Source: a virus | Taxonomy: Duplodnaviria > Heunggongvirae > Uroviricota > Caudoviricetes | Strand: one strand, 5' to 3' | DNA length: 47,589 nucleotides | Virus record (IMG/VR): IMGVR_UViG_2706794673_000013 | Notes under the pieces: model-generated | Database searches by the model: none | Told to the model about the DNA's origin: nothing | What the model saw: the letters and a program-made list of their open reading frames with translations, nothing else | Part shown: piece by piece, positions 31,438-45,300 of the stretch | How the letters are laid out: every line of letters begins with the position of its first letter | How positions within the stretch are numbered: the first letter of the stretch is position 1 | Translations under genes and position numbers: made by a program

Positions 31438-31833
31438 ATGATCACTTACGTGACCTGTGATGACGTTGATAATGCGTTTGGGAACGCCTGGACGAGTGAG
31501 AACGCTAAAAATAAAGCTGTTTTAATGGCTAATGCCTGGCTTAATGGCTTCAACCTGAAAATTAACCCATCCCGTATTCCGGAAGAGGTAAAACTTGCGG
31601 GAGCATATGCAGCCAGAATTGCCTCATTCGGTAAGTTGTTTCAGCAGAAAAATGATTCTGGCGTTGTTATCAGTAAAGCCGTGTCGGCTGACGGGGTCAG
31701 TGTATCGAAATCATTTTCTGAGTTGCCAGCAAACAGCACTGCATTGCTTGAACCCGATTTACAGCTTGCGATAGCACTGCTGAAACCGTACGGACTTAGT
31801 CGCTCACAAGTCAGGGTTGTGAGGGGGGGATAA
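31438..31833 (+). CDS. Putative head-tail connector protein
   Basis: 131-aa ORF in the first head-tail joining position after the capsid gene; call by position only. Confidence 0.45.
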   Translation: MITYVTCDDVDNAFGNAWTSENAKNKAVLMANAWLNGFNLKINPSRIPEEVKLAGAYAARIASFGKLFQQKNDSGVVISKAVSADGVSVSKSFSELPANSTALLEPDLQLAIALLKPYGLSRSQVRVVRGG

Positions 31834-32216
31834 TGGGGCTTCGTGAAGAGATTCAGTCAGAGGTTGCCGCTGCTTTTGATGAGGATTTAGCGGACGCCGT
31901 GAGTGATTTTTCTGGTTCTTACGTTACGCACCGGCACTGGGATCCTGTGACGGAAACTGGCGGCGAATCAACCGCAATCTATACCGGGCGAGGCGTGTTG
32001 ACACGTTATAAGCTGGGCAGAATTGATGGGATTAATATTTTGCATGGTGACCTTAAATTAACCGCTCTGGTATGCGAGGTTACGGATAAACCAGCTGTCG
32101 ACCATATTATTGAGATTTATGATCCTGTATCAAGGCAGTTACAACGATACGAGGTAATTACAGCAAGTGTAGATCCTTCCGCATCAGTTTACTCTATCCA
32201 GTTAAGGAGAGCGTAA
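31833..32216 (+). CDS. Putative head-tail joining/head closure protein
   Basis: 127-aa ORF with ATG overlapping upstream stop. Confidence 0.45.
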   Translation: MGLREEIQSEVAAAFDEDLADAVSDFSGSYVTHRHWDPVTETGGESTAIYTGRGVLTRYKLGRIDGINILHGDLKLTALVCEVTDKPAVDHIIEIYDPVSRQLQRYEVITASVDPSASVYSIQLRRA

Positions 32217-32597: not shown

Positions 32598-33088
32598 AGT
32601 TTACTGAAATCAGAAATACGGTTATTTCCAGAATGACGGCACAGACGATTATTGATGGAAAAGACGTATTGTATCCGAACGGGCCAACGTTCGATCCTTC
32701 CGGTAAGTTAATCTGGGCGCGGTTAAGTANNNNNNNNNNNNNNNNNNNNNNNNNNNNNNNNNNNNNNNNNNNNNNNNNNNNNNNNNNNNNNNNNNNNNNN
32801 NNNNNNNNNNNNNNNNNNNNNNNNNNNNNNNNNNNNNNNNNNNNNNNNNNNNNNNNNNNNNNNNNNNNNNNNNNNNNNNNNNNNNNNNNNNNNNNNNNNN
32901 NNNNNNNNNNNNNNNNNNNNNNNNNNNNNNNNNNNNNNNNNNNNNNNNNNNNNNNNNNNNNNNNNNNNNNNNNNNNNNNNNNNNNNNNNNNNNNNNNNNN
33001 NNNNNNNNNNNNNNNNNNNNNNNNNNNNNNNNNNNNNNNNNNNNNNNNNNNNNNNNNATCGCGCGCTCTAGCGCAATTAATGACATAG
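32594..33088 (+). CDS. Putative tail terminator/tail component (interrupted by N run 32730-33057)
   Basis: ORF beginning MKFTEIRNTVISRMTAQTIIDGKDVLYPNGPTFDPSGKLIWARLS then masked; boundaries uncertain. Confidence 0.3.
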   Translation: MKFTEIRNTVISRMTAQTIIDGKDVLYPNGPTFDPSGKLIWARLSXXXXXXXXXXXXXXXXXXXXXXXXXXXXXXXXXXXXXXXXXXXXXXXXXXXXXXXXXXXXXXXXXXXXXXXXXXXXXXXXXXXXXXXXXXXXXXXXXXXXXXXXXXXXXXSRALAQLMT

Positions 33089-33097
33089 GAGGCTCCT

Positions 33098-33526
33098 GTG
33101 AGTTCAGGTGCAAAGGTTATCTCGGCATTTATCCGGGAGACGGTTGCAGGCACTACGCCAGCAAGTGGTGACTGGAGTTTATTAAAACGCACAAGCTGGG
33201 GAGTAAAACCCNNNNNNNNNNNNNNNNNNNNNNNNNNNNNNNNNNNNNNNNNNNNNNNNNNNNNNNNNNNNNNNNNNNNNNNNNNNNNNNNNNNNNNNNN
33301 NNNNNNNNNNNNNNNNNNNNNNNNNNNNNNNNNNNNNNNNNNNNNNNNNNNNNNNNNNNNNNNNNNNNNNNNNNNNNNNNNNNNNNNNNNNNNNNNNNNN
33401 NNNNNNNNNNNNNNNNNNNNNNNNNNNNNNNNNNNNNNNNNNNNNNNNNNNNNNNNNNNNNNNNNNNNNNNNNNNNNNNNNNNNNNNNGGAGCGCAGGTT
33501 GGCTCATGGAAAATGCAGATCCCTAA
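33098..33526 (+). CDS. Putative tail structural protein (interrupted by N run 33212-33488)
   Basis: ORF beginning MSSGAKVISAFIRETVAGTTPASGDWSLLKRTSWGVKP then masked; boundaries uncertain. Confidence 0.3.
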   Translation: MSSGAKVISAFIRETVAGTTPASGDWSLLKRTSWGVKPXXXXXXXXXXXXXXXXXXXXXXXXXXXXXXXXXXXXXXXXXXXXXXXXXXXXXXXXXXXXXXXXXXXXXXXXXXXXXXXXXXXXXXXXXXXXXSAGWLMENADP

Positions 33527-34094
33527 CGACGGCGATATTACAGCGACCGTAACCTTTGCCGGACTGGACTGGGAATCAAAGGCCGATGATACGAATTTTA
33601 TCAAAGGCGAACCTGTGGATAGTGCAGGAAAGCTACGTTATTCGTTTAAGGAGGTTTCAGCAGTAAGCCTGAATGGTGTTGCCGGAGGTAACGGTTTTTG
33701 TATCGACAGTTTTGATATTCAGTTCGATAACAAACTCCAGACACAGCGTTGTATCGGGACTGGCTCGCCTTATGCAGGAGCAAATATTCCGACTACTTTT
33801 ACACCGTCCGGTACGGTGACGCTTTCATGGTCTAAAGCCGCGTGGGAAATCTGGAGTAAAACACTGACTGGAGAAACAGTTCCGTTCAGCTTCACGCTTT
33901 CGAATGGAGAGGGGGCATACACTTTCAGTTTCCCGAAGGTTCAGGTGTCAGGTGAATGGCCTGATGGGGGTAATAGCGACATTATCCAGGTTCAATTGAG
34001 CATTACCGCAGCAGATGAAGCACCTACGATAACCAGAAAAAAAAATTCCCCGGCTGCCGTGATCGCAAAAGCCAGTGCTGAGGCGATTAGTTGA
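33513..34094 (+). CDS. Putative major tail (tube) protein
   Basis: 193-aa ORF immediately upstream of the tail assembly chaperone pair; start may lie in masked sequence. Confidence 0.5.
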   Translation: MQIPNDGDITATVTFAGLDWESKADDTNFIKGEPVDSAGKLRYSFKEVSAVSLNGVAGGNGFCIDSFDIQFDNKLQTQRCIGTGSPYAGANIPTTFTPSGTVTLSWSKAAWEIWSKTLTGETVPFSFTLSNGEGAYTFSFPKVQVSGEWPDGGNSDIIQVQLSITAADEAPTITRKKNSPAAVIAKASAEAIS

Positions 34095-34142: not shown

Positions 34143-34604
34143 ATGAGGTTATGGATGTTTATTCTTAATCAGAAAATTATCATTGGTGGAGAACGCTGGT
34201 TTACGCCAATGAAGGACTTAAAACCTGTAGACGGGTTAAAACTGTTGGTGGCAAGCAGCGATAACGATCAGTATCGCTCCCGTAATGCATTAATCCGTCG
34301 CCACATTGAGAAAATGGATGCCAGTTTGCACGTCGGAACGAAGGAGTTTGATATTTCAAAGGTTTCCGAGGTGGATTCTGTTGATGATTTACTCATTGAT
34401 AATGCCGCTCGTTATCTGCTGAAAGACTGGAAAGGGGTTGGTGAACTGGTTAATGGTGTTGAGGTTGCACTGGAATATACGGCAGAACGAGGGATCGCGC
34501 TGCTTAAGCAGAATCCAGAGTTGTACTGGCAGATCCTTGCAGAAGCAGCCAGCATCGCCCAGGGTAAAGAGCAGCAGAAGCAGGATACGATAAAAAAGCC
34601 ATAG
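34143..34604 (+). CDS. Tail assembly chaperone (lambda G-like)
   Basis: 153-aa ORF just upstream of tape measure gene; ends ...DTIKKP with slippery heptamer A_AAA_AAG two codons before its stop; alternative start at 34155. Confidence 0.65.
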   Translation: MRLWMFILNQKIIIGGERWFTPMKDLKPVDGLKLLVASSDNDQYRSRNALIRRHIEKMDASLHVGTKEFDISKVSEVDSVDDLLIDNAARYLLKDWKGVGELVNGVEVALEYTAERGIALLKQNPELYWQILAEAASIAQGKEQQKQDTIKKP

Positions 34605-34912
34605 CTGCCCAGCGGTGGTTATCGGAGTTCGGGGGAGAAAGGGGGGAAAAGGCAAGATGGAAGCGAGAAAAACTCAGGTTGCCACCGATACCGGAACCAG
34701 AAATAGACCCGGTGCTTAAGGAGTTGTTGTACGCCTATTCGGTAATATCCCGTGCCCGACGTTATGCTGGAATGGCTGGGGTGCCTTTGCCTTTATCTCT
34801 GACAGAGATAAATGAATATTTAGCCACTCATCCGGTATTGATTGAGCGCGATGAATTTGAAGCAGTGATCTTTGCACTGGATGACCAGTATTTTCAGGAG
34901 CAGTGTGTGTAG
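34143..34912 (+). CDS. Tail assembly chaperone frameshift product (GT-like) via -1 shift at A_AAA_AAG
   Basis: The -1 frame is open from the slippery site through to the stop at 34910-34912 (manual translation ...DTIKK|KAIAAQRWLSEFGGERGEKARWKREKLRLPPIPEPE...QCV). Confidence 0.5.
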
Positions 34913-35033
34913 TTGTTAATTACGTACACTCTGTTACAGAGATGTGATGGTGTCTTTAATTAAATCGATGATGCTCCTGGAGAAAAGCATTGCGTGGCCT
35001 CGTAATCGCTATATCTACTATTATGTCGCCTGA

Positions 35034-35057
35034 AACCCACTTCGCGGTGGGTTTTTT
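35034..35057 (+). terminator. Hairpin plus T-run upstream of tape measure gene (possible attenuator)
   Basis: Stem AACCCAC / GTGGGTT with TTCGCG loop followed by TTTT. Confidence 0.45.
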
Positions 35058-35077: not shown

Positions 35078-38000
35078 ATGGCAGAGCAAACCTCGCGTCT
35101 CGCAATAATTATTGATAGCACTGGAGCGAAAAATAATGCTGACAATCTGACCTCCTCATTAGTCAAAATGACGCAGGCTGGGGAAACTGCTGCAAATAGC
35201 GCAGGGAAAGTGACTAAGGCAACAGAAGATGAGAAGAACGCGCTCGCAAAATTAAAAGCAGCTATTGATCCAGTTGGTGCCGCAATTGATACTGTCGGTC
35301 GACGCTATTCTGAATTAAAGAAATTTTTCGATAAAGGGCTTATTGATAAAGAAGAATATGAATTTCTTGTCCGTAAACTTAATGAAACCACAGAGGAATT
35401 GAGCGGGGTTGCGCAAGCGCAGAGAGAAGCCGAGAAGGCCGGAAAACTTGCTGCCGCCCAGCAGGAAGCGCAGGCTCAGGCCTTTCAAAGAATGCTGGAC
35501 AAGATCGACCCTCTGGCTGCGGCGCTAAGAAATCTTGAACAACAGCATGATGAACTTAATGCTGCGTTTGCATCCGGGAAAATAAATGGTTCTCAGTTTG
35601 AGAATTATAGCCGAAAAATACAGGAAACACGGCGAGAGCTTACCGGAGAGGCTCAGGCAGAGCGAGAAGCAGCAAAAGCGCATGATGAACAGGTTGTTGC
35701 TTTGCAACGTCTGATTGCTCAACTTGATCCTGTCGGAACTGCTTTTAATCGTCTGGTAGAACAACAGAAACAGCTCAATGAAGCAAAAGCTAAGGGGATG
35801 CTTTCTCCTGAAATGTATGAGGAGCTTTCTGGAAAACTTCGTGCTATGCGGAGTGAGCTTGAGGTTACTCAATCACAATTAAGCAAAACCGGAATGTCGG
35901 CAAAACAAACGGCTTTTGCTATGCGCATGTTGCCTGTACAAATGACGGATATTGTTGTTGGGTTGTCCACTGGTCAGTCGCCATTTATGGTGTTAATGCA
36001 GCAGGGCGGCCAGCTAAAAGATATGTTCGGTGGGATTGGCCCGGCGATCAAAGGTGTAGGTTCTTATGTGCTGGGATTAATTAATCCTTTTACCCTGGCC
36101 GCAGCAGCCGTTGGGGTCTTAGGACTGGCTTACTATAAAGGCTCTCAGGAGCAGGACGAATTTAATAAATCTCTTATTCTTACCGGAAATCAGTTGGGGA
36201 CAACCAGCGGGCAATTGGGCGATATAGCTCAACGTGCCGGGAATGCGGCTGATTCGACAACTGGTGCTGCGGCGGCAGTATTAAATCAGCTTGTGCGTTC
36301 GGGAAAGGTAGCGAGCAGTTCGCTGGAGCAAGTGACGACAGCGATAGTAAAAACGAGCGAAGTAACAGGAATATCAACCGAACAACTGGTTAATGACTTC
36401 AATGAAATTGCAAAGGATCCTGTCAGTGCCATATCAAAACTTAATGATCAGTACCATTTTCTGACACTTGCGACTTATAACCAGATTAAGGCGCTACAGG
36501 ATGAAGGGAACCAGCAGGAGGCCGCCCGCATTGCGACAGAAGAATACTCATCCTCAATGATCCAGCGCACCAACCAGATTAAAGAAAATCTTGGTTATCT
36601 TGAGACTGCATGGAAAGCTGTCGCAGACTCCGCAAAATGGGCATGGGATTCCATGCTGGATATTGGCCGTGAGGCCTCCCTTGATCAAAAAATCTNNNNN
36701 NNNNNNNNNNNNNNNNNNNNNNNNNNNNNNNNNNNNNNNNNNNNNNNNNNNNNNNNNNNNNNNNNNNNNNNNNNNNNNNNNNNNNNNNNNNNNNNNNNNN
36801 NNNNNNNNNNNNNNNNNNNNNNNNNNNNNNNNNNNNNNNNNNNNNNNNNNNNNNNNNNNNNNNNNNNNNNNNNNNNNNNNNNNNNNNNNNNNNNNNNNNN
36901 NNNNNNNNNNNNNNNNNNNNNNNNNNNNNNNNNNNNNNNNNNNNNCCGGGAGCAGCAGAGAGCTAGTGAACTTGCAAAACTGGAAAAGCTAAAGAATCAG
37001 TATTCAAAGGAAGAATATAATAATCTTATCGCTCAAATAAATGAGCGTTATAAAGATCCAAAGCAACCAAAGGCGAAAGGTTATTCTGATGATGCAGCCC
37101 AACGAATGATTGATCATCTGAATCAACAGAATGCGTTACTAAGTTCACAAGCTGAGTTGACCGTTAAATTAAGTTCCTCTGAACAGGAACTGGTTAAGTG
37201 GCGTCAGCGGATTGCCGACCTAGAGTCACGACCATCATCGAAATTAACCCAGGATCAGAAATCGCTTCTCTTACACCGGGAAGAAATAACCACGTTGATG
37301 GAGAAAAATGTTGCGATTGAAAAAAATAACAGGCTAATCAAGGAATCCGCCGAAATAACAGCATGGCGTGATTCATTGCAGGCTTCGATTGATAATCGTC
37401 AGCAGGGGTATGATATTCAGATTGCTGGTTATGGGGTTGGCGATAAAAATCAGCAACGCCAGCAGGAATTACTGCGGATTGAACATGGATATAACAATCA
37501 GCGTCTGCAACTTGAACGTGACTATGCAGATAAATCCCGTGGAATGTCAGATCATGTTTTTCAAGAGAAAATGCAGGCTCTGAATGATGCTCTGGAACGG
37601 GAAAAAGAAATTGTCAGACAGAAAAACGAGCAGCTCGATATTCAGGCAGGAGACTGGGTTAGTGGTGCCTCCCAGGGATTCAATAACTGGCTGGATGACA
37701 CTAAGGATATCAGTGAGCAGATAAAATCAACCACGACTCAGATGTTTGATGGGATGACCGATGCGCTGGGTGATTTTGTCACGACAGGCAAGGCAAATTT
37801 TCGTTCTTTCGCTACTTCCGTGATTTCGGATCTTAGTCGAATAGCATTAAAGGCTTCAATTACTGGGATTTTCGACAGCATTAGTAACAGTTCTTCTGGG
37901 GGGATTTTAGGAACTATCGGGAGTGCTATTAGTAAATTTATTCCGAATGCAAAGGGCGGTGTTTATGAGTCTCCGTCATTGAGCACGTATTCGAACGGTA

Positions 38001-38311
38001 TTTATGATTCCCCGCAATTTTTTGCTTTTGCAAAAGGGGCTGGTGTTTTTGGTGAGGCTGGACCGGAAGCCATTATGCCATTAACACGAACTTCCGATGG
38101 TTCTCTTGGTGTCAGAGCTATTAATAGTAAAAGTGGTAATGGAGGCGGAGATATTACCTATGCCCCTGTATACCAAATCACTATTCAAAATGACGGCCAG
38201 AATGGAGAGATTGGCCCTCAGGCAATAAAAGCACTTATGGGGATGGTTGATCAGCGGGTGCAGGGCAATCTGTTAAATATGCGACGTGATGGGGGAATGT
38301 TAAGTGGCTAA
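35078..38311 (+). CDS. Tail tape measure protein (interrupted by N run 36696-36945)
   Basis: 1077-aa ORF (by track) with long coiled-coil-rich N-terminal half; SD AGGAG; C-terminus ...[40 protein letters not shown]. Confidence 0.85.
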
Positions 38312-38642
38312 TACGGAAGAATTTCACTGGTTACCAGAGGATGGAATGAAAACAGAAAATAAACCATCGATAAAAACTGTAAGATTTGGTGATGGTTATG
38401 AGCAACGAAGTCCAAATGGACTTAATCATTCTCTGCGCGTTTTCACCTGTGATTTCAAAGTTGAGGCGAATGAACGTGATTCATTTGAAAAATTTTTAGC
38501 CCGGCATGAAGGCTATAAATCTTTTTTTTGGCGCCCGCCGGGTATTAACAGAAAAATCAGAGTGGTGTGTCGAACGTGGTCAGCGACAGAACATATCACC
38601 TATACCGATTTTTCGTGTCAGTTTGACGAAGTGGTGATCTGA
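38304..38642 (+). CDS. Minor tail protein M-like (divergent copy)
   Basis: 112-aa ORF with M-family signature (VRFGDGYEQRSPNGLN ... FWRPP ... DFSCQFDEVV) but low identity to the second M copy at 39721. Confidence 0.6.
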   Translation: MANTEEFHWLPEDGMKTENKPSIKTVRFGDGYEQRSPNGLNHSLRVFTCDFKVEANERDSFEKFLARHEGYKSFFWRPPGINRKIRVVCRTWSATEHITYTDFSCQFDEVVI

Positions 38643-39227
38643 TGCAGGACATACAACAGGAAACGCTGAATGAATGCATTCGTGCGGAGCAGTCGGCCAG
38701 CGTGGTGCTCTGGGAAATCGACCTGACCGAGGTAGGCGGGGATCGCTACTTTTTCTGCAATGAGCAGAACGAGAAAGGAGAGTCTGTCACCTGGCAGAGT
38801 CGGCAGTATCAGGCCTATCCCATTCAGGGGAGTGGATTTGAGATGAACGGCAAAGGTGCCAGTGCAAGGCCAACGCTGAAAGTCTCTAATCTGCACGGCA
38901 TGGTCACCGGGATGGCGGAAGACCTGCAGAGTCTGGTCGGCGGAACGGTGGTCAGGCGTAAGGTTTACGCCCGTTTTCTGGATGCGGTGAACTTCGTCAA
39001 CGGAAACAGTGACGCCGATCCGGAGCAGGAGGTGATCAGCCGCTGGCGTATTGAGCAGTGCAGCGAACTGAGCGCGGTCAGTGCCTCCTTTGTACTGTCC
39101 ACGCCGACGGAAACGGACGGCGCTGTTTTTCCGGGGCGCATCATGCTTGCTAATACCTGCACCTGGACCTATCGCGGTGATGAGTGCGGTTATCACGGTC
39201 CGGCTGTCGCGGATGAATATGACCAGC
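38642..39227 (+). CDS. Minor tail protein L-like (first copy; C-terminus lost in N run 39228-39495)
   Basis: Visible 195 aa are about 95% identical to the L gene at 40050-40748; DNA near-identical over 38940-39227 vs 40340-40627. Confidence 0.6.
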
Positions 39228-39495
39228 NNNNNNNNNNNNNNNNNNNNNNNNNNNNNNNNNNNNNNNNNNNNNNNNNNNNNNNNNNNNNNNNNNNNNNNNN
39301 NNNNNNNNNNNNNNNNNNNNNNNNNNNNNNNNNNNNNNNNNNNNNNNNNNNNNNNNNNNNNNNNNNNNNNNNNNNNNNNNNNNNNNNNNNNNNNNNNNNN
39401 NNNNNNNNNNNNNNNNNNNNNNNNNNNNNNNNNNNNNNNNNNNNNNNNNNNNNNNNNNNNNNNNNNNNNNNNNNNNNNNNNNNNNNNNNNNNNNN

Positions 39496-39724
39496 TGCGG
39501 AAGGTGGTTATGTGGGCGGTGCCGGAAGTCCGGCGCAGATGCGGCGGGCTGAAGGCATTAATTTTAATCAGAACAATCACGTGGTGATTCAGAACGACGG
39601 TACGAATGGTCTGCCAGGTCCACAGATGATGAAGGCCGTGTATGACATGGCCCGCAAGGGTGCCCGTGATGAAATTCAGACACAGATGCGTGATGGTGGC
39701 CTGTTCTCCGGAGGTGGACGATGA
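39496..39724 (+). other. Fragment encoding a tape-measure (H-like) C-terminal end
   Basis: Post-gap translation AEGGYVGGAGSPAQMRRAEGINFNQNNHVVIQNDGTNGLPGPQMMKAVYDMARKGARDEIQTQMRDGGLFSGGGR parallels the C-terminus of the tape measure ORF at 35078-38311. Confidence 0.4.
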
Positions 39725-40050
39725 AAACCTTCCGCTGGAAAGTGAAACCCGGTATGGATGTGGCTTCGGCCCCTTCTGTAAGAAAGGTGCGCTTTGGTGA
39801 TGGCTATTCCCAGCGAGCGCCTGCCGGGCTGAATGCCAACCTGAAAACGTACAGCGTGACGCTTTCTGTCCCCCGTGAGGAGGCCATGGTACTGGAGTCG
39901 TTTCTGGAAGAGCACGGGGGCTGGAAAGCCTTTCTGTGGACGCCGCCTTATGAGTGGCGGCAGATAAAGGTGACCTGCGCAAAATGGTCGTCGCGGGTCA
40001 GTATGCTGCGTGTTGAGTTCAGCGCAGAGTTTGAACAGGTGGTGAACTGA
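39721..40050 (+). CDS. M: Minor tail protein M (lambda-like)
   Basis: 109-aa ORF MKTFRWKVKPGMDVASAPSVRKVRFGDGYSQRAPAGLNANLKTYSVTLSVPREEA..., near-identical to lambda gpM as recalled. Confidence 0.9.
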   Translation: MKTFRWKVKPGMDVASAPSVRKVRFGDGYSQRAPAGLNANLKTYSVTLSVPREEAMVLESFLEEHGGWKAFLWTPPYEWRQIKVTCAKWSSRVSMLRVEFSAEFEQVVN

Positions 40051-40748
40051 TGCAGGATATCCGGCAGGAAACACTGAATGAATGCACCCGTGCGGAGCAG
40101 TCGGCCAGCGTGGTGCTCTGGGAAATCGATCTGACAGAGGTCGGTGGAGAACGTTATTTTTTCTGTAATGAGCAGAACGAAAAAGGTGAGCCGGTCACCT
40201 GGCAGGGGCGACAGTATCAGCCGTATCCCATTCAGGGGAGTGGTTTTGAACTGAATGGCAAAGGCACCAGTACGCGCCCCACGCTGATGGTTTCTAACCT
40301 GTACGGTATGGTCACCGGGATGGCGGAAGATCTACAGAGTCTGGTCGGCGGAACGGTGGTCCGGCGTAAGGTTTACGCCCGTTTTCTGGATGCGGTGAAC
40401 TTCGTCAACGGAAACAGTGACGCCGATCCGGAGCAGGAGGTGATCAGCCGCTGGCGCATTGAGCAGTGCAGCGAACTGAGCGCGGTGAGTGCCTCTTTTG
40501 TACTGTCCACGCCGACGGAAACAGATGGCGCTGTTTTTCCGGGACGTATCATGCTGGCCAACACCTGCACCTGGACCTATCGCGGCGATGAGTGCGGTTA
40601 TCACGGTCCGGCGGTCGCGGATGAATATGACCAGCCAACGTCCGACATCACGAAGGATAAATGCAGCAAATGCCTGAGTGGCTGTAAGTTTCGCAATAAC
40701 GTCGGCAACTTTGGCGGCTTCCTTTCCATTAACAAACTTTCGCAGTAA
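40050..40748 (+). CDS. L: Minor tail protein L (lambda-like)
   Basis: 232-aa ORF MQDIRQETLNECTRAEQSASVVLWEIDLTEVGGERYFFCNEQNEKGEPVTWQGRQYQPYPIQGSGFELNGKG..., near-identical to lambda gpL; C-terminal Cys cluster. Confidence 0.9.
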   Translation: MQDIRQETLNECTRAEQSASVVLWEIDLTEVGGERYFFCNEQNEKGEPVTWQGRQYQPYPIQGSGFELNGKGTSTRPTLMVSNLYGMVTGMAEDLQSLVGGTVVRRKVYARFLDAVNFVNGNSDADPEQEVISRWRIEQCSELSAVSASFVLSTPTETDGAVFPGRIMLANTCTWTYRGDECGYHGPAVADEYDQPTSDITKDKCSKCLSGCKFRNNVGNFGGFLSINKLSQ

Positions 40749-40753
40749 ATCCC

Positions 40754-41790
40754 ATGACACAGACAGAATCAGCGATTCTGGCGCACGCCCGGCGATGTGC
40801 GCCAGCGGAGTCGTGCGGCTTCGTGGTGAGAACACCGGAGGGGGAAAGATATTTTCCCTGCGTGAATATTTCCGGTGAGCCGGAGGAGTATTTCCGGATG
40901 GCTCCGGAGGACTGGCTGCAGGCAGAGATGCAGGGTGAGATTGTGGCGCTGGTCCACAGCCACCCCGGTGGTCTGCCCTGGCTGAGTGAGGCCGACCGGC
41001 GGCTGCAGGTGCAGAGTGATTTGCCGTGGTGGCTGGTCTGCCGGGGGGCGATTCACAAGTTCCGCTGTGTGCCACATCTTACCGGGCGGCGCTTTGAGCA
41101 CGGGGTGACGGACTGTTACACGCTGTTCCGGGATGCTTACCATCTGGCGGGGATTGAGATGCCGGATTTTCATCGTGAGGATGACTGGTGGCGTCACGGT
41201 CANNNNNNNNNNNNNNNNNNNNNNNNNNNNNNNNNNNNNNNNNNNNNNNNNNNNNNNNNNNNNNNNNNNNNNNNNNNNNNNNNNNNNNNNNNNNNNNNNN
41301 NNNNNNNNNNNNNNNNNNNNNNNNNNNNNNNNNNNNNNNNNNNNNNNNNNNNNNNNNNNNNNNNNNNNNNNNNNNNNNNNNNNNNNNNNNNNNNNNNNNN
41401 NNNNNNNNNNNNNNNNNNNNNNNNNNNNNNNNNNNNNNNNNNNNNNNNNNNNTGCCAGATTTTCATCGTGAGGACGACTGGTGGCGTAATGGTCAGAATC
41501 TCTATCTGGATAATCTGGAGGCTACAGGGCTGTATCAGGTGCCGTTGTCAACGGCGCAGCCGGGCGATGTGCTGCTGTGCTGTTTTGGTTCATCGGTGCC
41601 GAATCATGCCGCCATTTACTGTGGTGACGGCGAGCTGCTGCACCATATTCCTGAACAACTGAGCAAACGAGAGAGGTATACCGACAAATGGCAGCGACGC
41701 ACACACTCCCTCTGGCGTCACCGGGCATGGCACGCATCTGCCTTTACGGGGATTTGCAGCGATTTGGCCGCCGCATCGACCTTCGTGTGA
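40754..41790 (+). CDS. K: Tail assembly protein K (lambda-like; interrupted by N run 41203-41452 with flanking duplicate sequence)
   Basis: MTQTESAILAHARRCAPAESCGFVV... matches lambda gpK; the peptide PDFHREDDWWR(H/N)G is encoded on both sides of the N run, indicating a duplicated or unresolved join. Confidence 0.75.
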
Positions 41791-42335
41791 AAACGGGGGC
41801 CGAAGCCATCCGGGCACTGGCCACACAGCTCCCGGCATTTCGTCAGAAACTGAGCGACGGCTGGTATCAGGTGCGCATTGCCGGGCGTGATGCAGGCGAA
41901 AATGAATTATCTGCCCGTCTTAATGAACCGCTGGCAAATGGTGCCGTGATCCACATCGTTCCGCGTCTGGCGGGTGCCAAAAGTGGCGGTGTGTTTCAGG
42001 CGGTGCTGGGTGCGGCGCTGATTGCGGTGGCATGGTGGAACCCTGTGGGCTGGCTGGGGGCCGCGGCTGTATCGGGTATGTATGCAGCAGGGGCCAGTAT
42101 GATCCTGGGTGGTGTGGCGCAGATGCTGGCACCGAAAGCCAGGACGCCCACGGCAGCCAGTACAGATAACGGCAAACAGAACACGTATTTCTCGTCACTG
42201 GATAACATGGTTGCCCAGGGTAATGTTCTGCCTGTTCTGTACGGGGAAATGCGCGTGGGGTCACGTGTGGTTTCTCAGGAGATCAGCACGGCAGACGAAG
42301 GGGATGGTGGTCAGGTTGTGGTGATTGGTCGCTGA
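41688..42335 (+). CDS. I: Tail assembly protein I (lambda-like)
   Basis: 215-aa ORF MAATHTLPLASPGMARICLYGDLQRFGRRIDLRVKTGAEAIRALATQLPAF..., overlapping end of K as in lambda. Confidence 0.85.
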   Translation: MAATHTLPLASPGMARICLYGDLQRFGRRIDLRVKTGAEAIRALATQLPAFRQKLSDGWYQVRIAGRDAGENELSARLNEPLANGAVIHIVPRLAGAKSGGVFQAVLGAALIAVAWWNPVGWLGAAAVSGMYAAGASMILGGVAQMLAPKARTPTAASTDNGKQNTYFSSLDNMVAQGNVLPVLYGEMRVGSRVVSQEISTADEGDGGQVVVIGR

Positions 42336-42395
42336 TGCAAAATGTTTTATGAGAAACCGCCTGCGGGCGGTTTTGTCGTTTATGGAGCGTGAGGA

Positions 42396-45300
42396 ATGGG
42401 TAAAGGCAGCAGTAAGGGGCATACCCCGCGCGNNNNNNNNNNNNNNNNNNNNNNNNNNNNNNNNNNNNNNNNNNNNNNNNNNNNNNNNNNNNNNNNNNNN
42501 NNNNNNNNNNNNNNNNNNNNNNNNNNNNNNNNNNNNNNNNNNNNNNNNNNNNNNNNNNNNNNNNNNNNNNNNNNNNNNNNNNNNNNNNNNNNNNNNNNNN
42601 NNNNNNNNNNNNNNNNNNNNNNNNNNNNNNNNNNNNNNNNNNNNNNNNNNNNNNNNNNNNNNNNNNNNNNNNNNNNNNNNNNNNNNNNNGGAAAAAGACA
42701 TCACCATTAAGGGCAAAACCACCTCGCAGTATCTGGTCTCGGTGGTGGTGGATAACCTGCCTCCGCGCCCGTTCAGTATCCGGATGCGCAGGATGACACC
42801 GGACAGCACCACAGACCAGCTGCAGAACAAAACGCTCTGGTCGTCATACACCGAAATCATCGATGTGAAACAGTGCTACCCGAACACTGCACTGGTCGGC
42901 GTACAGGTGGACTCGGAGCAGTTCGGCAGCCAGCAGGTGAGTCGTAATTATCATCTTCGCGGGCGCATTCTGCAGGTGCCGTCGAACTATAACCCGCAGA
43001 CGCGACAATACAGCGGTATCTGGGACGGAACGTTAAAACCAGCATACAGCAACAACATGGCCTGGTGTCTGTGGGATATGCTGACCCACCCGCGCTACGG
43101 CATGGGGAAACGTCTTGGTGCGGCGGATGTGGACAAATGGGCGCTGTATGTCATCGGCCAGTACTGCGACCNNNNNNNNNNNNNNNNNNNNNNNNNNNNN
43201 NNNNNNNNNNNNNNNNNNNNNNNNNNNNNNNNNNNNNNNNNNNNNNNNNNNNNNNNNNNNNNNNNNNNNNNNNNNNNNNNNNNNNNNNNNNNNNNNNNNN
43301 NNNNNNNNNNNNNNNNNNNNNNNNNNNNNNNNNNNNNNNNNNNNNNNNNNNNNNNNNNNNNNNNNNNNNNNNNNNNNNNNNNNNNNNNNNNNNNNNNNNN
43401 NNNNNNNNNNNNNNNNNNNNNGCCGTTGAGGTGAACTGGATTGACCCGGATAACGGCTGGGAGACGGCGACAGAGCTTGTGGAGGATACGCAGGCCATTG
43501 CCCGTTACGGTCGTAACGTCACGAAGATGGATGCTTTTGGCTGTACCAGCCGGGGGCAGGCACACCGCGCCGGGCTGTNNNNNNNNNNNNNNNNNNNNNN
43601 NNNNNNNNNNNNNNNNNNNNNNNNNNNNNNNNNNNNNNNNNNNNNNNNNNNNNNNNNNNNNNNNNNNNNNNNNNNNNNNNNNNNNNNNNNNNNNNNNNNN
43701 NNNNNNNNNNNNNNNNNNNNNNNNNNNNNNNNNNNNNNNNNNNNNNNNNNNNNNNNNNNNNNNNNNNNNNNNNNNNNNNNNNNNNNNNNNNNNNNNNNNN
43801 NNNNNNNNNNNNNNNNNNNNNNNNNNNNGAGCCGTGTTCCTGACGGCGTTGCTGAATACAGCGTGTGGGGGCTGAAGCTGCCGACGTTGCGCCAGCGCCT
43901 GTTCCGCTGTGNNNNNNNNNNNNNNNNNNNNNNNNNNNNNNNNNNNNNNNNNNNNNNNNNNNNNNNNNNNNNNNNNNNNNNNNNNNNNNNNNNNNNNNNN
44001 NNNNNNNNNNNNNNNNNNNNNNNNNNNNNNNNNNNNNNNNNNNNNNNNNNNNNNNNNNNNNNNNNNNNNNNNNNNNNNNNNNNNNNNNNNNNNNNNNNNN
44101 NNNNNNNNNNNNNNNNNNNNNNNNNNNNNNNNNNNNNNNNNNNNNNNNNNNNNNNNNNNNNNNNNNNNNNNNNNNNNNNNNNNNNNNNNNNNNNNNNNNN
44201 NNNNNNNNNNNNNNNNNNNNNNNNNNNNNNNNNNNNNNNNNNNNNNNNNNNNNNNNNNNNNNNNNNNNNTTGACCCGGATAACGGCTGGGAGACGGCGAC
44301 AGAGCTTGTGGAGGATACGCAGGCCATTGTCCGTTACGGTCGTAACGTCACGAAGATGGATGCCTTTGGCTGTACCAGCCGGGGGCAGGCACACCGCGCC
44401 GGGCTGTGGCTGATTAAAACGGAACTGCTGGAGACGNNNNNNNNNNNNNNNNNNNNNNNNNNNNNNNNNNNNNNNNNNNNNNNNNNNNNNNNNNNNNNNN
44501 NNNNNNNNNNNNNNNNNNNNNNNNNNNNNNNNNNNNNNNNNNNNNNNNNNNNNNNNNNNNNNNNNNNNNNNNNNNNNNNNNNNNNNNNNNNNNNNNNNNN
44601 NNNNNNNNNNNNNNNNNNNNNNNNNNNNNNNNNNNNNNNNNNNNNNNNNNNNNNNNNNNNNNNNNNNNNNNNNNNNNNNNNNNNNNGTAAAAGTGAGCCG
44701 TGTTCCTGACGGTGTTGCTGAATACAGCGTGTGGGGGCTGAAGCTGCCGACGCTGCACCAGCGATTGTTCCGCTGCGTGAGTATCCGTGAGAACGACGAC
44801 GGCACGTATGCCATCACCGCCGTGCAGCATGTGCCGGAAAAAGAAGCCATCGTGGATAACGGGGCGCACTTTGACGGCGACCAGAGCGGCACGGTGAATG
44901 GTGTCACGCCGCCAGCGGTGCAGCACCTGACTGCCGAAGTCACCGCAGACAGCGGGGAATATCAGGTGCTGGCGCGCTGGGACACGCCGAAGGTGGTGAA
45001 GGGGGTGAGCTTTATGCTTCGCCTGACCGTGGCAGCGGATGACGGCAGTGAGCGGCTGGTCAGCACGGCCCGGACGACGGAAACCACATACCGCTTCACG
45101 CAACTGGCGCTGGGACGGTACACGCTGACAGTCCGGGCGGTAAATGCCTGGGGACAGCAGGGCGATCCGGCGTCGGTATCGTTCAGGATTGCCGCACCGG
45201 TAGCACCGTCGCGGATTGAGCTGACGCCGGGCTATTTTCAGATAACTGCCACGCCGCATCTTGCGGTTTATGATCCGACGGTACAGTTTGAGTTCTGGTT

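What the first reader, a model, noticed from the sequence alone, without database searches (positions are those of the whole stretch)
34580..34912. Programmed -1 frameshift site A_AAA_AAG at the end of the tail assembly chaperone gene (G/GT)
The G-like ORF ends ...ATA AAA AAG CCA TAG. The heptamer A_AAA_AAG is a classic -1 slippery sequence, and the -1 frame is open from that point for about 105 codons to the stop at 34912. This reproduces the conserved G/GT frameshift of long-tailed phages with a different heptamer from lambda's G_GGA_AAG.
Basis: seen in the sequence. Interest (0 to 1): 0.4.

Follow-up and report, generated by a model that had tools for sequence, protein, structure and literature searches.

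The report
Tail chaperone G/GT frameshift site
This is the usual programmed -1 ribosomal frameshift that lets a long-tailed phage make a short and a long tail-assembly chaperone from one gene, here in a Rac-type E. coli prophage where databases do not annotate it; real, well supported by comparison with relatives, but an ordinary member of a well-known class.

Summary
The chaperone-like ORF (34155..34604, +) ends ATA AAA AAG CCA TAG. The heptamer A_AAA_AAG (34592..34598) is in X_XXY_YYZ register. The -1 frame runs on for 104 codons to the stop at 34910..34912. The pair lies between the tail tube gene and the tape measure gene.

The heptamer alone is common (24 in the window, about 14 expected). 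The case rests on comparison with relatives.
- The same site holds A_AAA_AAG in 11 distinct enterobacterial or phage loci and in 80 IMG/VR loci, and lambda's G_GGA_AAG at the same position in Raoultella and Pantoea.
- Codon-position variability switches from the 0 frame to the -1 frame at the heptamer.
- None of 17 related loci has a start codon in the -1 frame until at least 27 codons past the site.
- The 0-frame stop position varies (3, 21, 75 or 105 nt downstream).
- No conserved downstream RNA structure was found.

The most likely mechanism is lambda-like, low-efficiency tandem tRNA slippage giving G (149 aa) and GT (252 aa). No fusion protein has been observed.

A_AAA_AAG chaperone sites are already known (ECs1801, O157 Sakai). 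This YdaY family, including E. coli K-12 Rac, is unannotated. It is a new member of a known kind, of low interest.

The parts
33132..34094 (+). Tail tube (major tail) gene, immediately upstream of G; partly hidden by an N mask at 33212..33488
   Evidence: Pfam Phage_tube_2 E 1.8e-12 and phrog_290 E 1.2e-59 on the visible C-terminal part. Collinear with the RefSeq 'phage tail tube protein' at L001 5033..5995.
34155..34604 (+). G: tail assembly chaperone ORF, 149 aa, of the YdaY family. The likely start is ATG 34155, with GAGG 7 nt upstream. ATG 34143 is in frame. RefSeq calls a shorter 119-aa YdaY from 34245.
   Evidence: phrog_313 'tail assembly chaperone' E 4e-46. The N-terminus from M-F/I-I-L is conserved across genera. 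Annotated as ydaY in E. coli RefSeq records.
34592..34598 (+). Slippery heptamer A_AAA_AAG in X_XXY_YYZ register. Lys AAA would be in the P site and Lys AAG in the A site; both tRNAs can re-pair with AAA after a 1-nt backward slip.
   Evidence: Sequence. Same position and register in 11 distinct relatives; G_GGA_AAG in 2. All 80 IMG/VR loci keep it.
34598..34912 (+). T: the -1 frame extension, 104 codons plus stop TAG at 34910..34912. It can only be reached by frameshifting. The first possible start codon in this frame is TTG 34679.
   Evidence: phrog_1189 E 1.4e-36; weak matches to phrog_313 positions 173-246 and to Pfam PF23812 Phage_TAC_18, 20.7 bits. 11 of 22 family members hit PF23812. 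Third-position variability follows this frame from the heptamer onward.
34155..34912 (+). Predicted GT fusion product, 252 aa: G residues 1-148 followed by AIAAQRWLSEFGG...QEQCV
   Evidence: Translation across the slip. tblastn of the fusion finds two-piece matches, G and T in different frames, in Klebsiella, Erwinia, Pseudomonas and Acinetobacter phages.
34582..34585 (+). AGGA, a Shine-Dalgarno-like tetramer 6 nt upstream of the heptamer. It is a possible but untested stimulator and also lies inside conserved Gln-Asp/Glu codons.
   Evidence: Present in 11 of 13 aligned sequences. Its spacing is at the lower edge of the 6-17 nt range searched by Sharma et al. 2014. There is no independent evidence for a role.
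34599..34625 (+). Local hairpin directly after the heptamer (spacer 0). It is not conserved and is probably not a stimulator.
   Evidence: MFE fold. Energy is no better than shuffles: z 0.31 for 129 nt and z -0.17 for 45 nt. It is absent from relatives, and RNAalifold gives a consensus of -3.1 kcal/mol with no covariation.
35078..38311 (+). Tape measure protein gene, 1077 aa, downstream partner of the chaperone
   Evidence: Pfam TMP_2 E 3.9e-81, Tape_meas_lam_C E 3.9e-26; phrog_24.

Best explanation
This is a programmed -1 ribosomal frameshift of the phage G/GT tail-assembly-chaperone type. Ribosomes translating G (34155..34604) mostly terminate at TAG 34602..34604 and release the 149-aa chaperone G. 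A small fraction slips back one nucleotide while tRNA-Lys occupies AAA (P site) and AAG (A site) of A_AAA_AAG (34592..34598). These ribosomes resume at GCC 34598 and add 104 residues, giving the 252-aa fusion GT.

By analogy with lambda, G and the G part of GT would coat the tape measure protein (35078..38311). The T part would recruit the tail tube protein (33132..34094), and neither would end up in the virion.

Shown here: the sequence geometry, the lack of any independent start for T, the frame switch in selective constraint at the heptamer, and conservation or equivalent replacement of the heptamer across genera.

Inferred: that the fusion is actually made, its efficiency, and the binding partners of the two domains. 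My guess for efficiency is a few tenths of a percent to a few percent, because no conserved stimulator was found.
For: (1) Geometry and context. Gene order is tail tube, G, T (-1), tape measure, M, L. G matches phrog_313 'tail assembly chaperone' at E 4e-46.

(2) Site conservation with flanks varying. The window shares its exact site with Shigella. The distinct loci with A_AAA_AAG are E. ruysiae, four Citrobacter species, Siccibacter, Dryocola, Entomohabitans, Scandinavium and a Klebsiella phage. All 80 IMG/VR loci, with 30 distinct site regions, keep it. The 66-nt site region is 100% identical in 759 E. coli genomes.

(3) Equivalent replacement. Raoultella and Pantoea have GTG GGA AAG in place of GTA AAA AAG at the same position. 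This changes Lys to Gly and the preceding Val codon's third base together, which preserves X_XXY_YYZ. Acinetobacter phages TRS1 and TCUAN1 have G_GGA_AAG in phase in the overlap, and TRS1 carries a joined chaperone CDS. Sharma et al. 2014 measured the two heptamers as near-equal: 0.29 vs 0.28% bare, 4.3 vs 3.8% with IS911 stimulators, 39 vs 43% with the IS3 pseudoknot. In-phase A_AAA_AAG is strongly avoided in E. coli genes, z -10.1.

(4) Column entropy is concentrated at 0-frame third positions upstream (24-25 against 6-9). From 7 nt after the heptamer it is concentrated at -1-frame third positions: 49.5 against 17-22 over 120 nt.

(5) None of 17 loci has ATG, GTG or TTG in the -1 frame from its opening to at least 27 codons past the site. 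In Raoultella and Scandinavium the first is at +58, and in the Acinetobacter phages at +76 to +84. Gene callers give T homologues inconsistent lengths of 60-138 aa.

(6) The 0-frame stop lies 3, 21, 75 or 105 nt after the heptamer in different relatives, while the -1 peptide stays conserved from the first residue, K-A-I/L-E-A-Q-K-W-L.

(7) The T family is weakly related to Pfam Phage_TAC_18: 11 of 22 members, best E 9.4e-6.
Against: There is no direct evidence of the fusion protein, such as proteomics or a reporter assay. No conserved downstream structure was found, and there is no clear SD-like stimulator. In a reporter the bare heptamer gave only about 0.3%, so efficiency could be very low.

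One relative, Erwinia phage Gungnir39, has C_GCA_AAG, and the Pseudomonas phages have G_GAA_AAG at the homologous position. The canonical P-site half is therefore not universal in the family.

G has no hit in the local Pfam or NCBIfam copies, nor to PDB sequences. The AlphaFold model is of low confidence (pLDDT 62.6), so the chaperone fold could not be confirmed. The prophage in this window may be defective, since its tail-tip region looks rearranged, so the site need not be in use in this particular genome.
Confidence: 0.9

Rival explanations
1. T is a separate gene translated from its own internal start, as current annotation has it (GTG 34712 or TTG 34727 as annotated, or TTG 34679, the first start codon in the frame). 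The heptamer at the end of G would be incidental.
For: RefSeq and GenBank records annotate a separate 61-66 aa 'hypothetical protein' there. phrog_1189 models only the C-terminal ~76 residues.
Against: The 27-38 codons between the heptamer and those starts are conserved as protein in the -1 frame, with third-position variation. No start codon is shared: relatives have their first start at +27 to +84, and it is often the internal conserved Met at +58. No SD precedes 34679, 34712 or 34727. Gene callers disagree on the start.
Confidence: 0.03
2. The frame change is made at the RNA level. RNA polymerase stutters on the A6 run and adds an extra A to a fraction of transcripts (transcriptional slippage), so the ribosome does not slip.
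For: The site contains a homopolymeric run, AAAAAA. Transcriptional slippage is a known alternative in some bacterial and IS genes (review PMC5009743).
Against: The run is only 6 A. From my own knowledge, productive slippage generally needs about 9 or more. Relatives with G_GGA_AAG (Raoultella, Pantoea, Acinetobacter phages) and G_GAA_AAG (Pseudomonas phages) have only 3-4 A at the site but keep the two-frame arrangement. What is conserved is the X_XXY_YYZ register, including the third base of the preceding codon. That matters for tRNA re-pairing, not for polymerase stuttering.
Confidence: 0.03
3. There is no recoding in this genome. The region after G is a decaying remnant or chance ORF of a defective prophage, or the two frames result from a homopolymer sequencing error in what is really one ORF.
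For: The window's tail-tip region looks rearranged. Rac-type prophages are often defective, and K-12 Rac has only a 5'-truncated ydaY. A few database proteins are in-frame G-T fusions (P0001, P0002).
Against: The two-frame structure is identical in 759 complete E. coli genomes for the site region and holds across more than 10 genera and isolated phages. The T frame is under purifying selection. The G_GGA_AAG variants cannot be homopolymer miscounts. P0001 is a deletion derivative that lacks the site, not an A7 variant.
Confidence: 0.03

Closest known systems
Bacteriophage lambda G/GT (Levin, Hendrix & Casjens 1993; Xu, Hendrix & Duda 2004, 2013, 2014, as summarised in PMC5009743)
   Same: Gene order is major tail, G, T (-1), tape measure. 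The sizes are similar: lambda G 140 aa plus a 144-aa T extension, here 149 plus 104. An in-phase heptamer ending in A_AAG lies near the end of G. T has no start of its own. I found no conserved stimulatory structure here. Relatives of the window carry lambda's exact heptamer at this site.
   Different: There is no detectable sequence similarity to gpG or gpT: no BLASTP hit with E below 61, and hhalign probability 0.1%. The heptamer is A_AAA_AAG, not G_GGA_AAG. The 0-frame stop is 3 nt after the heptamer instead of 15 nt. A 165-nt gap with a terminator-like hairpin separates T from the tape measure gene, whereas lambda T overlaps H.
ECs1801/ECs1802 tail assembly chaperone of O157:H7 Sakai prophage Sp9 (cluster A_AAA_AAG_25, marked 'true' in Sharma et al. 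2014, PMC4066793)
   Same: It has the same heptamer, A_AAA_AAG, at the very end of a chaperone gene in an E. coli lambdoid prophage...AGA AAA AAG TAG, and sits between the major tail and tape measure genes.
   Different: The protein family is unrelated: no BLASTP alignment with E up to 100. The stop codon is directly adjacent to the heptamer rather than one codon later.
Acinetobacter phage vB_AbaS_TRS1 TRS1_18/TRS1_19 (chaperone annotated as a joined CDS)
   Same: It is a distant homologue of the T part, 39% identity over about 80 residues, E 4e-6, with the same two-frame arrangement between major tail and downstream genes. The frameshift is already annotated there.
   Different: The only canonical in-phase heptamer in the overlap is G_GGA_AAG, 78 nt before the G stop. 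The G part was not matched by tblastn.
E. coli dnaX and IS911/IS3 -1 frameshift signals
   Same: The heptamer A_AAA_AAG is identical and relies on the same tRNA-Lys slippage.
   Different: Those signals owe their high efficiency to an upstream SD-like element and a downstream hairpin or pseudoknot. Here no conserved downstream structure exists. Only an AGGA at 6 nt upstream is present, and it is confounded with coding. In dnaX the shifted product is shorter, whereas here it is longer.

Membership tests
G/GT-type tail assembly chaperone with programmed -1 frameshift (Xu et al. 2004 class) | Two overlapping ORFs located between the major tail (tube) gene and the tape measure gene | tested here: met
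   Tube 33132..34094, G 34155..34604, T frame 34568..34912, tape measure 35078..38311.
G/GT-type tail assembly chaperone with programmed -1 frameshift (Xu et al. 2004 class) | A slippery sequence in the correct phase inside the overlap, leading into the downstream ORF in the -1 frame | tested here: met
   A_AAA_AAG at 34592..34598 in X_XXY_YYZ register; the -1 frame is open for 104 codons beyond it.
G/GT-type tail assembly chaperone with programmed -1 frameshift (Xu et al. 2004 class) | The downstream ORF lacks its own translation start | tested here: met
   No ATG, GTG or TTG in the -1 frame until +27 codons here, and +27 to +84 in 16 relatives. No SD precedes the annotated starts.
G/GT-type tail assembly chaperone with programmed -1 frameshift (Xu et al. 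2004 class) | The arrangement and a slippery site are conserved among diverged relatives | tested here: met
   Of 13 distinct enterobacterial or phage sequences, 10 have A_AAA_AAG, 2 have G_GGA_AAG and 1 has C_GCA_AAG. 80 of 80 IMG/VR loci keep A_AAA_AAG. Pseudomonas and Acinetobacter phages keep an A_AAG-based site. The coding phase switches at the site.
G/GT-type tail assembly chaperone with programmed -1 frameshift (Xu et al. 2004 class) | The fusion protein is made at a low, fixed ratio to G and is needed for tail assembly; neither protein is in the virion | not testable with these tools
   This needs proteomics, reporter assays or genetics. The lambda values (30:1) come from the review PMC5009743.
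Tail assembly chaperone protein families (profile or fold membership) | Significant match of G to a curated tail assembly chaperone profile | tested here: met
   phrog_313 'tail assembly chaperone' E 4e-46, residues 5-153 on profile positions 13-149 of 258. No hit in the local Pfam or NCBIfam copies. The precomputed Pfam tag PF27119 on homologues is not in the local copy, so its description was not seen.
Tail assembly chaperone protein families (profile or fold membership) | Match of the T extension to a tail assembly chaperone profile above the curated threshold | tested here: inconclusive
   PF23812 Phage_TAC_18 scores 20.7 bits against a cut-off of 27, E 4.7e-4. 11 of 22 family members match, best E 9.4e-6. 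phrog_313 positions 173-246 match at E 0.0097.
Tail assembly chaperone protein families (profile or fold membership) | Tail assembly chaperone fold of G | tested here: inconclusive
Lambda gpG / gpT sequence families | Detectable sequence homology to lambda gpG and gpT | tested here: not met
   No BLASTP alignment with E below 61; hhalign probability 0.1%. The window works like lambda G/GT but is not a member of lambda's protein families.
Stimulated -1 frameshift signals of the dnaX / IS3 type | A conserved downstream hairpin or pseudoknot 5-9 nt after the heptamer | tested here: not met
   RNAalifold consensus -3.1 kcal/mol with covariation term +0.07. Folds of the 45 nt downstream in 13 sequences give z from -1.0 to +1.3. 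The window's own hairpin starts at spacer 0 and is not conserved. No Rfam match.
Stimulated -1 frameshift signals of the dnaX / IS3 type | An upstream Shine-Dalgarno-like element at stimulatory spacing | tested here: inconclusive
   AGGA lies 6 nt upstream in 11 of 13 sequences, but inside conserved CAG GAN codons. It is absent in Siccibacter and the Erwinia phage.
Transcriptional slippage sites | A long homopolymeric A or T run (about 9 or more; my own knowledge) conserved as a run | tested here: not met
   There are only 6 A here. Relatives have GGGAAAG or GGAAAAG at the site.

The most novel reading that the evidence does not exclude
The YdaY-type chaperone family may be a natural allelic series showing that only the A-site half of the heptamer (A_AAG, tRNA-Lys) is essential for GT production in Gammaproteobacteria. 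The P-site half ranges from perfect (A_AAA, G_GGA) through one mismatch (G_GAA in Pseudomonas phages) to none (C_GCA followed directly by TAA in Erwinia phage Gungnir39), all without a conserved stimulatory structure. If the non-canonical members still make GT at useful levels, they would be natural cases of unstimulated tetramer-type -1 frameshifting in an essential phage gene. The nearby 0-frame stop might then act as the stimulator.
Probability: 0.3. Interest if true: 0.35.

Novelty: new member of a known kind. Interest (0 to 1): 0.2.

Why it matters
The main value is for annotation. The frameshift product is missing from every record of this family that I opened, and from the feature lists of the other hits. 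These include RefSeq E. coli genomes, where the gene is called 'protein YdaY' from a start that is too short and T is either a 61-66 aa 'hypothetical protein' or absent. They also include E. coli K-12 MG1655, where the T frame lies unannotated between ydaY (b1366) and ynaA (b1368). About a fifth of complete E. coli genomes (1066-1075 of 5426) carry the locus.

Recognising it gives YdaY a function, tail assembly chaperone G, and explains an apparently non-coding gap. It also supplies a clean comparative example: A_AAA_AAG and G_GGA_AAG are exchanged at one homologous position, which fits their measured equivalence. It does not change what is known about frameshifting or tail assembly.

Tried and rejected
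- Pfam and NCBIfam on G and on GT gave no hits. A PDB sequence search with a G profile gave nothing.
- Downstream stimulatory RNA was sought with a single-sequence fold, RNAalifold on 13 sequences, per-sequence folds with shuffles, and Rfam. Nothing was conserved or better than shuffles.
- Homology to lambda gpG/gpT and to ECs1801 was tested and rejected.
- A literature search for ydaY together with frameshift or tail assembly chaperone found nothing relevant. Xu et al. 2004 is not held in the library, so I could not check whether Rac-type prophages are in its tables.
- I first misread the Pseudomonas phage sequences as lacking any site and as having GGGAAAG in the wrong frame. Re-alignment showed the homologous site is G_GAA_AAG.
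- I tested whether 'heptamer plus long -1 ORF' is unusual in itself. It is not: 3 other cases among 58 ORFs, so I do not use it as evidence.
Full report
**1. What is in the sequence**

On the + strand an ORF in frame with ATG 34143 and ATG 34155 ends ...CAG GAT ACG ATA AAA AAG CCA TAG, with the stop at 34602..34604. AAAAAAG occupies 34592..34598 and its first A is the last base of the ATA codon. The register is therefore A_AAA_AAG, the X_XXY_YYZ form needed for tandem tRNA slippage.

The -1 frame is open from 34568 to the stop at 34910..34912. After a slip the next codon read is GCC at 34598, and 104 sense codons follow. Only the start coordinate, 34580, is a little upstream of the heptamer.

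ATG 34155 is the likely start of G. A GAGG lies 7 nt upstream, and the peptide from M-F-I-L is conserved across genera. This gives G = 149 aa and GT = 252 aa.

**2. Context**

- Upstream is the tail tube gene, 33132..34094 (Pfam Phage_tube_2, phrog_290; partly N-masked).
- Downstream is a 1077-aa tape measure gene, 35078..38311 (TMP_2, Tape_meas_lam_C).
- After that come the lambda-type M and L genes.
- G matches phrog_313 'tail assembly chaperone' at E 4e-46.
- The T extension matches phrog_1189 (function unknown) at E 1.4e-36. It also matches the C-terminal part of phrog_313 and Pfam Phage_TAC_18 weakly, the latter at 20.7 bits, below the cut-off of 27.
- 11 of 22 T homologues hit Phage_TAC_18.

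The DNA is a Rac-type E. coli prophage.
- The 1-kb region is found in 1075 of 5426 complete E. coli genomes.
- It is 100% identical in 'Salmonella phage SPF_0923'.
- The 66 nt around the site are identical in 759 genomes, including K-12 strains.
- RefSeq calls G 'protein YdaY' from a late start (119 aa). It annotates T either as a 66-aa hypothetical protein or not at all. No record that I opened for this family joins the two.
- In K-12 MG1655 the T frame lies unannotated between ydaY (b1366) and the tape measure remnant ynaA (b1368).

**3. Is it more than chance?**

The heptamer alone is not. It occurs 24 times in the window against 13.9 +/- 3.7 in shuffles. An in-phase XXXYYYZ near the end of an ORF with a long -1 ORF behind it occurs at three other places among 58 ORFs. 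Two of these are trivial: the next gene with its own ATG, and an off-frame ORF inside the capsid gene. I did not examine the third. The evidence is comparative.

(a) *Conservation of the site.* I collected relatives from annotated phages, from one genome per species and from IMG/VR. The region aligns without gaps around the site.
- Among 13 distinct sequences at down to 55% protein identity, 10 have A_AAA_AAG. These are E. coli, E. ruysiae, three Citrobacter sequences, Siccibacter, Dryocola, Entomohabitans, Scandinavium and a Klebsiella phage.
- Two, Raoultella and Pantoea, have G_GGA_AAG.
- One, Erwinia phage Gungnir39, has C_GCA_AAG followed directly by TAA.
- All 80 IMG/VR loci, with 30 distinct site regions, have A_AAA_AAG.

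(b) *Equivalent replacement.* The change from GTA AAA AAG to GTG GGA AAG alters an amino acid (Lys to Gly) and the synonymous third base of the preceding Val codon together. That is exactly what is needed to keep X_XXY_YYZ.

(c) *Deeper relatives.* At 31-33% identity, Acinetobacter phages TRS1 and TCUAN1 have G_GGA_AAG in phase in the overlap. TRS1 is annotated with a joined chaperone CDS. Pseudomonas phages phiPSA1 and Aurca01 have G_GAA_AAG followed by CCA T, as in the window.

(d) *Frame switch in constraint.* Summed column entropy lies at 0-frame third positions upstream of the heptamer (25.2 and 24.0, against 6-9 for positions 1 and 2). From 7 nt after the heptamer it lies at -1-frame third positions: 49.5 against 22.3 and 17.1 over 120 nt. 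The -1 peptide K-A-I/L-E-A-Q-K-W-L... is conserved from its first residue.

(e) *No independent start for T.* None of 17 loci has ATG, GTG or TTG in the -1 frame from where it opens until at least 27 codons past the site. In Raoultella and Scandinavium the first is the conserved internal Met at +58, and in the Acinetobacter phages it is at +76 to +84. Gene callers accordingly give T homologues lengths from 60 to 138 aa.

(f) *Variable G stop.* The 0-frame stop lies 3, 21, 75 or 105 nt after the heptamer in different relatives. The G tail is free to vary while the -1 frame is not.

**4. Mechanism**

The best explanation is simultaneous -1 slippage of the two tRNA-Lys on A_AAA_AAG. Most ribosomes terminate one codon later and give G. 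A minority give GT.

- Sharma et al. 2014 (PMC4066793) measured this heptamer in E. coli at 0.29% without stimulators, 4.3% with the IS911 stimulators and 39% with the IS3 pseudoknot.
- G_GGA_AAG behaved almost identically (0.28, 3.8 and 43%), which fits their interchange in this family.
- In-phase A_AAA_AAG is strongly avoided in E. coli genes (z -10.1), so keeping it here is meaningful.

I found no stimulator.
- The window has a hairpin immediately after the heptamer, 34599..34625. Its spacer is zero, its energy is no better than shuffles, and it is absent from relatives.
- RNAalifold gives -3.1 kcal/mol with no covariation.
- Rfam finds nothing.
- An AGGA lies 6 nt upstream in 11 of 13 sequences, but inside conserved Gln-Glu/Asp codons, so its role cannot be separated from coding.

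The signal thus resembles lambda's, which gives a G:GT ratio of about 30:1 (review PMC5009743). I expect a low efficiency, from a few tenths of a percent to a few percent, but this is an inference.

By analogy with lambda (same review), the G domain would bind the tape measure protein and the T domain the tube protein. Nothing here tests that.

**5. Rivals**

- *Independent initiation of T* is contradicted by points (d) and (e).
- *Transcriptional slippage* is unlikely. The run is only six A. Relatives with GGGAAAG or GGAAAAG keep the arrangement. What is conserved is codon register.
- *A sequencing error or decaying remnant* is contradicted by the identical two-frame structure in hundreds of complete genomes, more than ten genera and isolated phages, and by purifying selection on T. 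This particular prophage may still be defective (see section 8).

**6. Comparison with known systems**

- *Lambda G/GT.* The locus works like lambda G/GT and meets every computational criterion of the Xu et al. 2004 class. It is not a member of lambda's protein families: no BLASTP or hhalign similarity to gpG or gpT. In lambda the heptamer G_GGA_AAG lies 15 nt before the G stop and T overlaps H. Here the stop is 3 nt away, and 165 nt containing a terminator-like hairpin separate T from the tape measure gene.
- *ECs1801.* The heptamer A_AAA_AAG is already known at a tail assembly chaperone. ECs1801 of O157 Sakai prophage Sp9 ends AGA AAA AAG TAG and is marked 'true' by Sharma et al.. That protein is unrelated to the window's G.
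- *dnaX / IS3.* These share the heptamer but not the stimulators.
- *Fold.* The chaperone fold could not be confirmed. The model has pLDDT 62.6, and structure searches gave only weak hits, one of them a 'pre-tape measure chaperone' at E 0.027.

**7. Novelty and score**

This is a new, unannotated member of a very well-known kind. I found no paper linking ydaY to a frameshift, and I could not read Xu et al. 2004. A specialist would not be surprised.

The value lies in three things:
- correcting annotation in about a fifth of E. coli genomes, K-12 included;
- giving YdaY a function;
- the tidy natural exchange of two equivalent heptamers.

The non-canonical sites in the Erwinia and Pseudomonas phages are the only mildly unexpected element. 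Interest 0.2.

**8. Noticed in passing**

- After M and L, the window carries the C-terminal end of a second tape measure gene and a second M-L-K-I-J set (38642..42400). E. coli L73 and phage SPF_0923 have one set each.
- A terminator-like hairpin lies at 35032..35055.
- Natural in-frame G-T deletion derivatives exist in databases (P0001, P0123).
- A ParB-YdaY fusion protein (P0040) corresponds to the ynaK-ydaY junction of K-12 Rac.

Noticed in passing
window 38642..42400: The tail-tip module is partly duplicated. After M (38304..38642) and L (from 38642, running into the N mask at 39228..39495) comes the C-terminal end of a second tape measure gene (visible 39496..39724, ...GGLFSGGGR). It is followed by a second M (39721..40050), a second L (40050..40748, 93% nt identity to the L of E. 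coli L73), then K, I and J. E. coli L73 and phage SPF_0923 have a single M-L-K-I-J set. This looks like a recombination joint between two lambdoid tail modules, and the prophage may be defective. The joint itself is hidden by the mask.
   Followed up: partly
window 35032..35055 (+): A strong intrinsic-terminator-like hairpin, GAAACCCAC-TTCG-CGGTGGGTTTT followed by TTGTTG, lies in the 165-nt gap between the T stop and the tape measure start, inside what should be a late operon. Its only Rfam match is a sub-threshold hit to the terminator end of sroH (E 0.7). I did not check whether it is conserved in relatives.
   Followed up: no
L025 (E. coli K-12 MG1655 NC_000913.3 1425621..1426454): K-12's cryptic prophage Rac keeps the 3' part of this G gene as ydaY (b1366) with the identical slippery site. 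In the species-representative K-12-type loci the -1 frame is still open for 114 codons. In NC_000913.3 no feature is annotated between ydaY and the tape measure remnant ynaA (b1368). The RefSeq ydaY start (119 aa) also looks too late in intact prophages, where the conserved N-terminus begins 30 codons earlier (window 34155).
   Followed up: partly
proteins P0001, P0123, P0040: Database proteins that are natural fusions. P0001 (240 aa, E. coli) joins G to T in frame through a deletion that removes the heptamer region (...LAEA|GYDKKAIAAQ...). P0123 (101 aa, 11 contigs) joins the first 26 residues of G to T from PEPEID. P0040 (246 aa, 18 contigs) is ParB N-terminal domain plus YdaY, matching the ynaK-ydaY junction of K-12 Rac.
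   Followed up: no
L004 1986..1995 (Erwinia phage Gungnir39); L005 434..440 and L006 1887..1893 (Pseudomonas phages phiPSA1, Aurca01): At the homologous position these relatives have non-canonical sites: C_GCA_AAG directly followed by TAA, and G_GAA_AAG. Only the A-site half (A_AAG) is kept. The Erwinia phage also has CAA AAA G 12 nt upstream as an alternative. Whether and where these shift is unresolved.
   Followed up: partly
window, 13 runs between 15062 and 44686: There are thirteen masked N runs of 243-358 nt, for example 32730..33057 and 33212..33488 in the tail terminator and tube genes, and 36696..36945 in the tape measure gene. They make ORF lists show long X stretches and spurious ORFs across them.
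   Followed up: no
window 31824..31833: G_GGG_GGA lies in phase at the end of ORF 31438..31833, with the next gene (31833..32216) in the -1 frame. That gene has its own ATG overlapping the stop, so this looks like ordinary gene overlap and not recoding.
   Followed up: no
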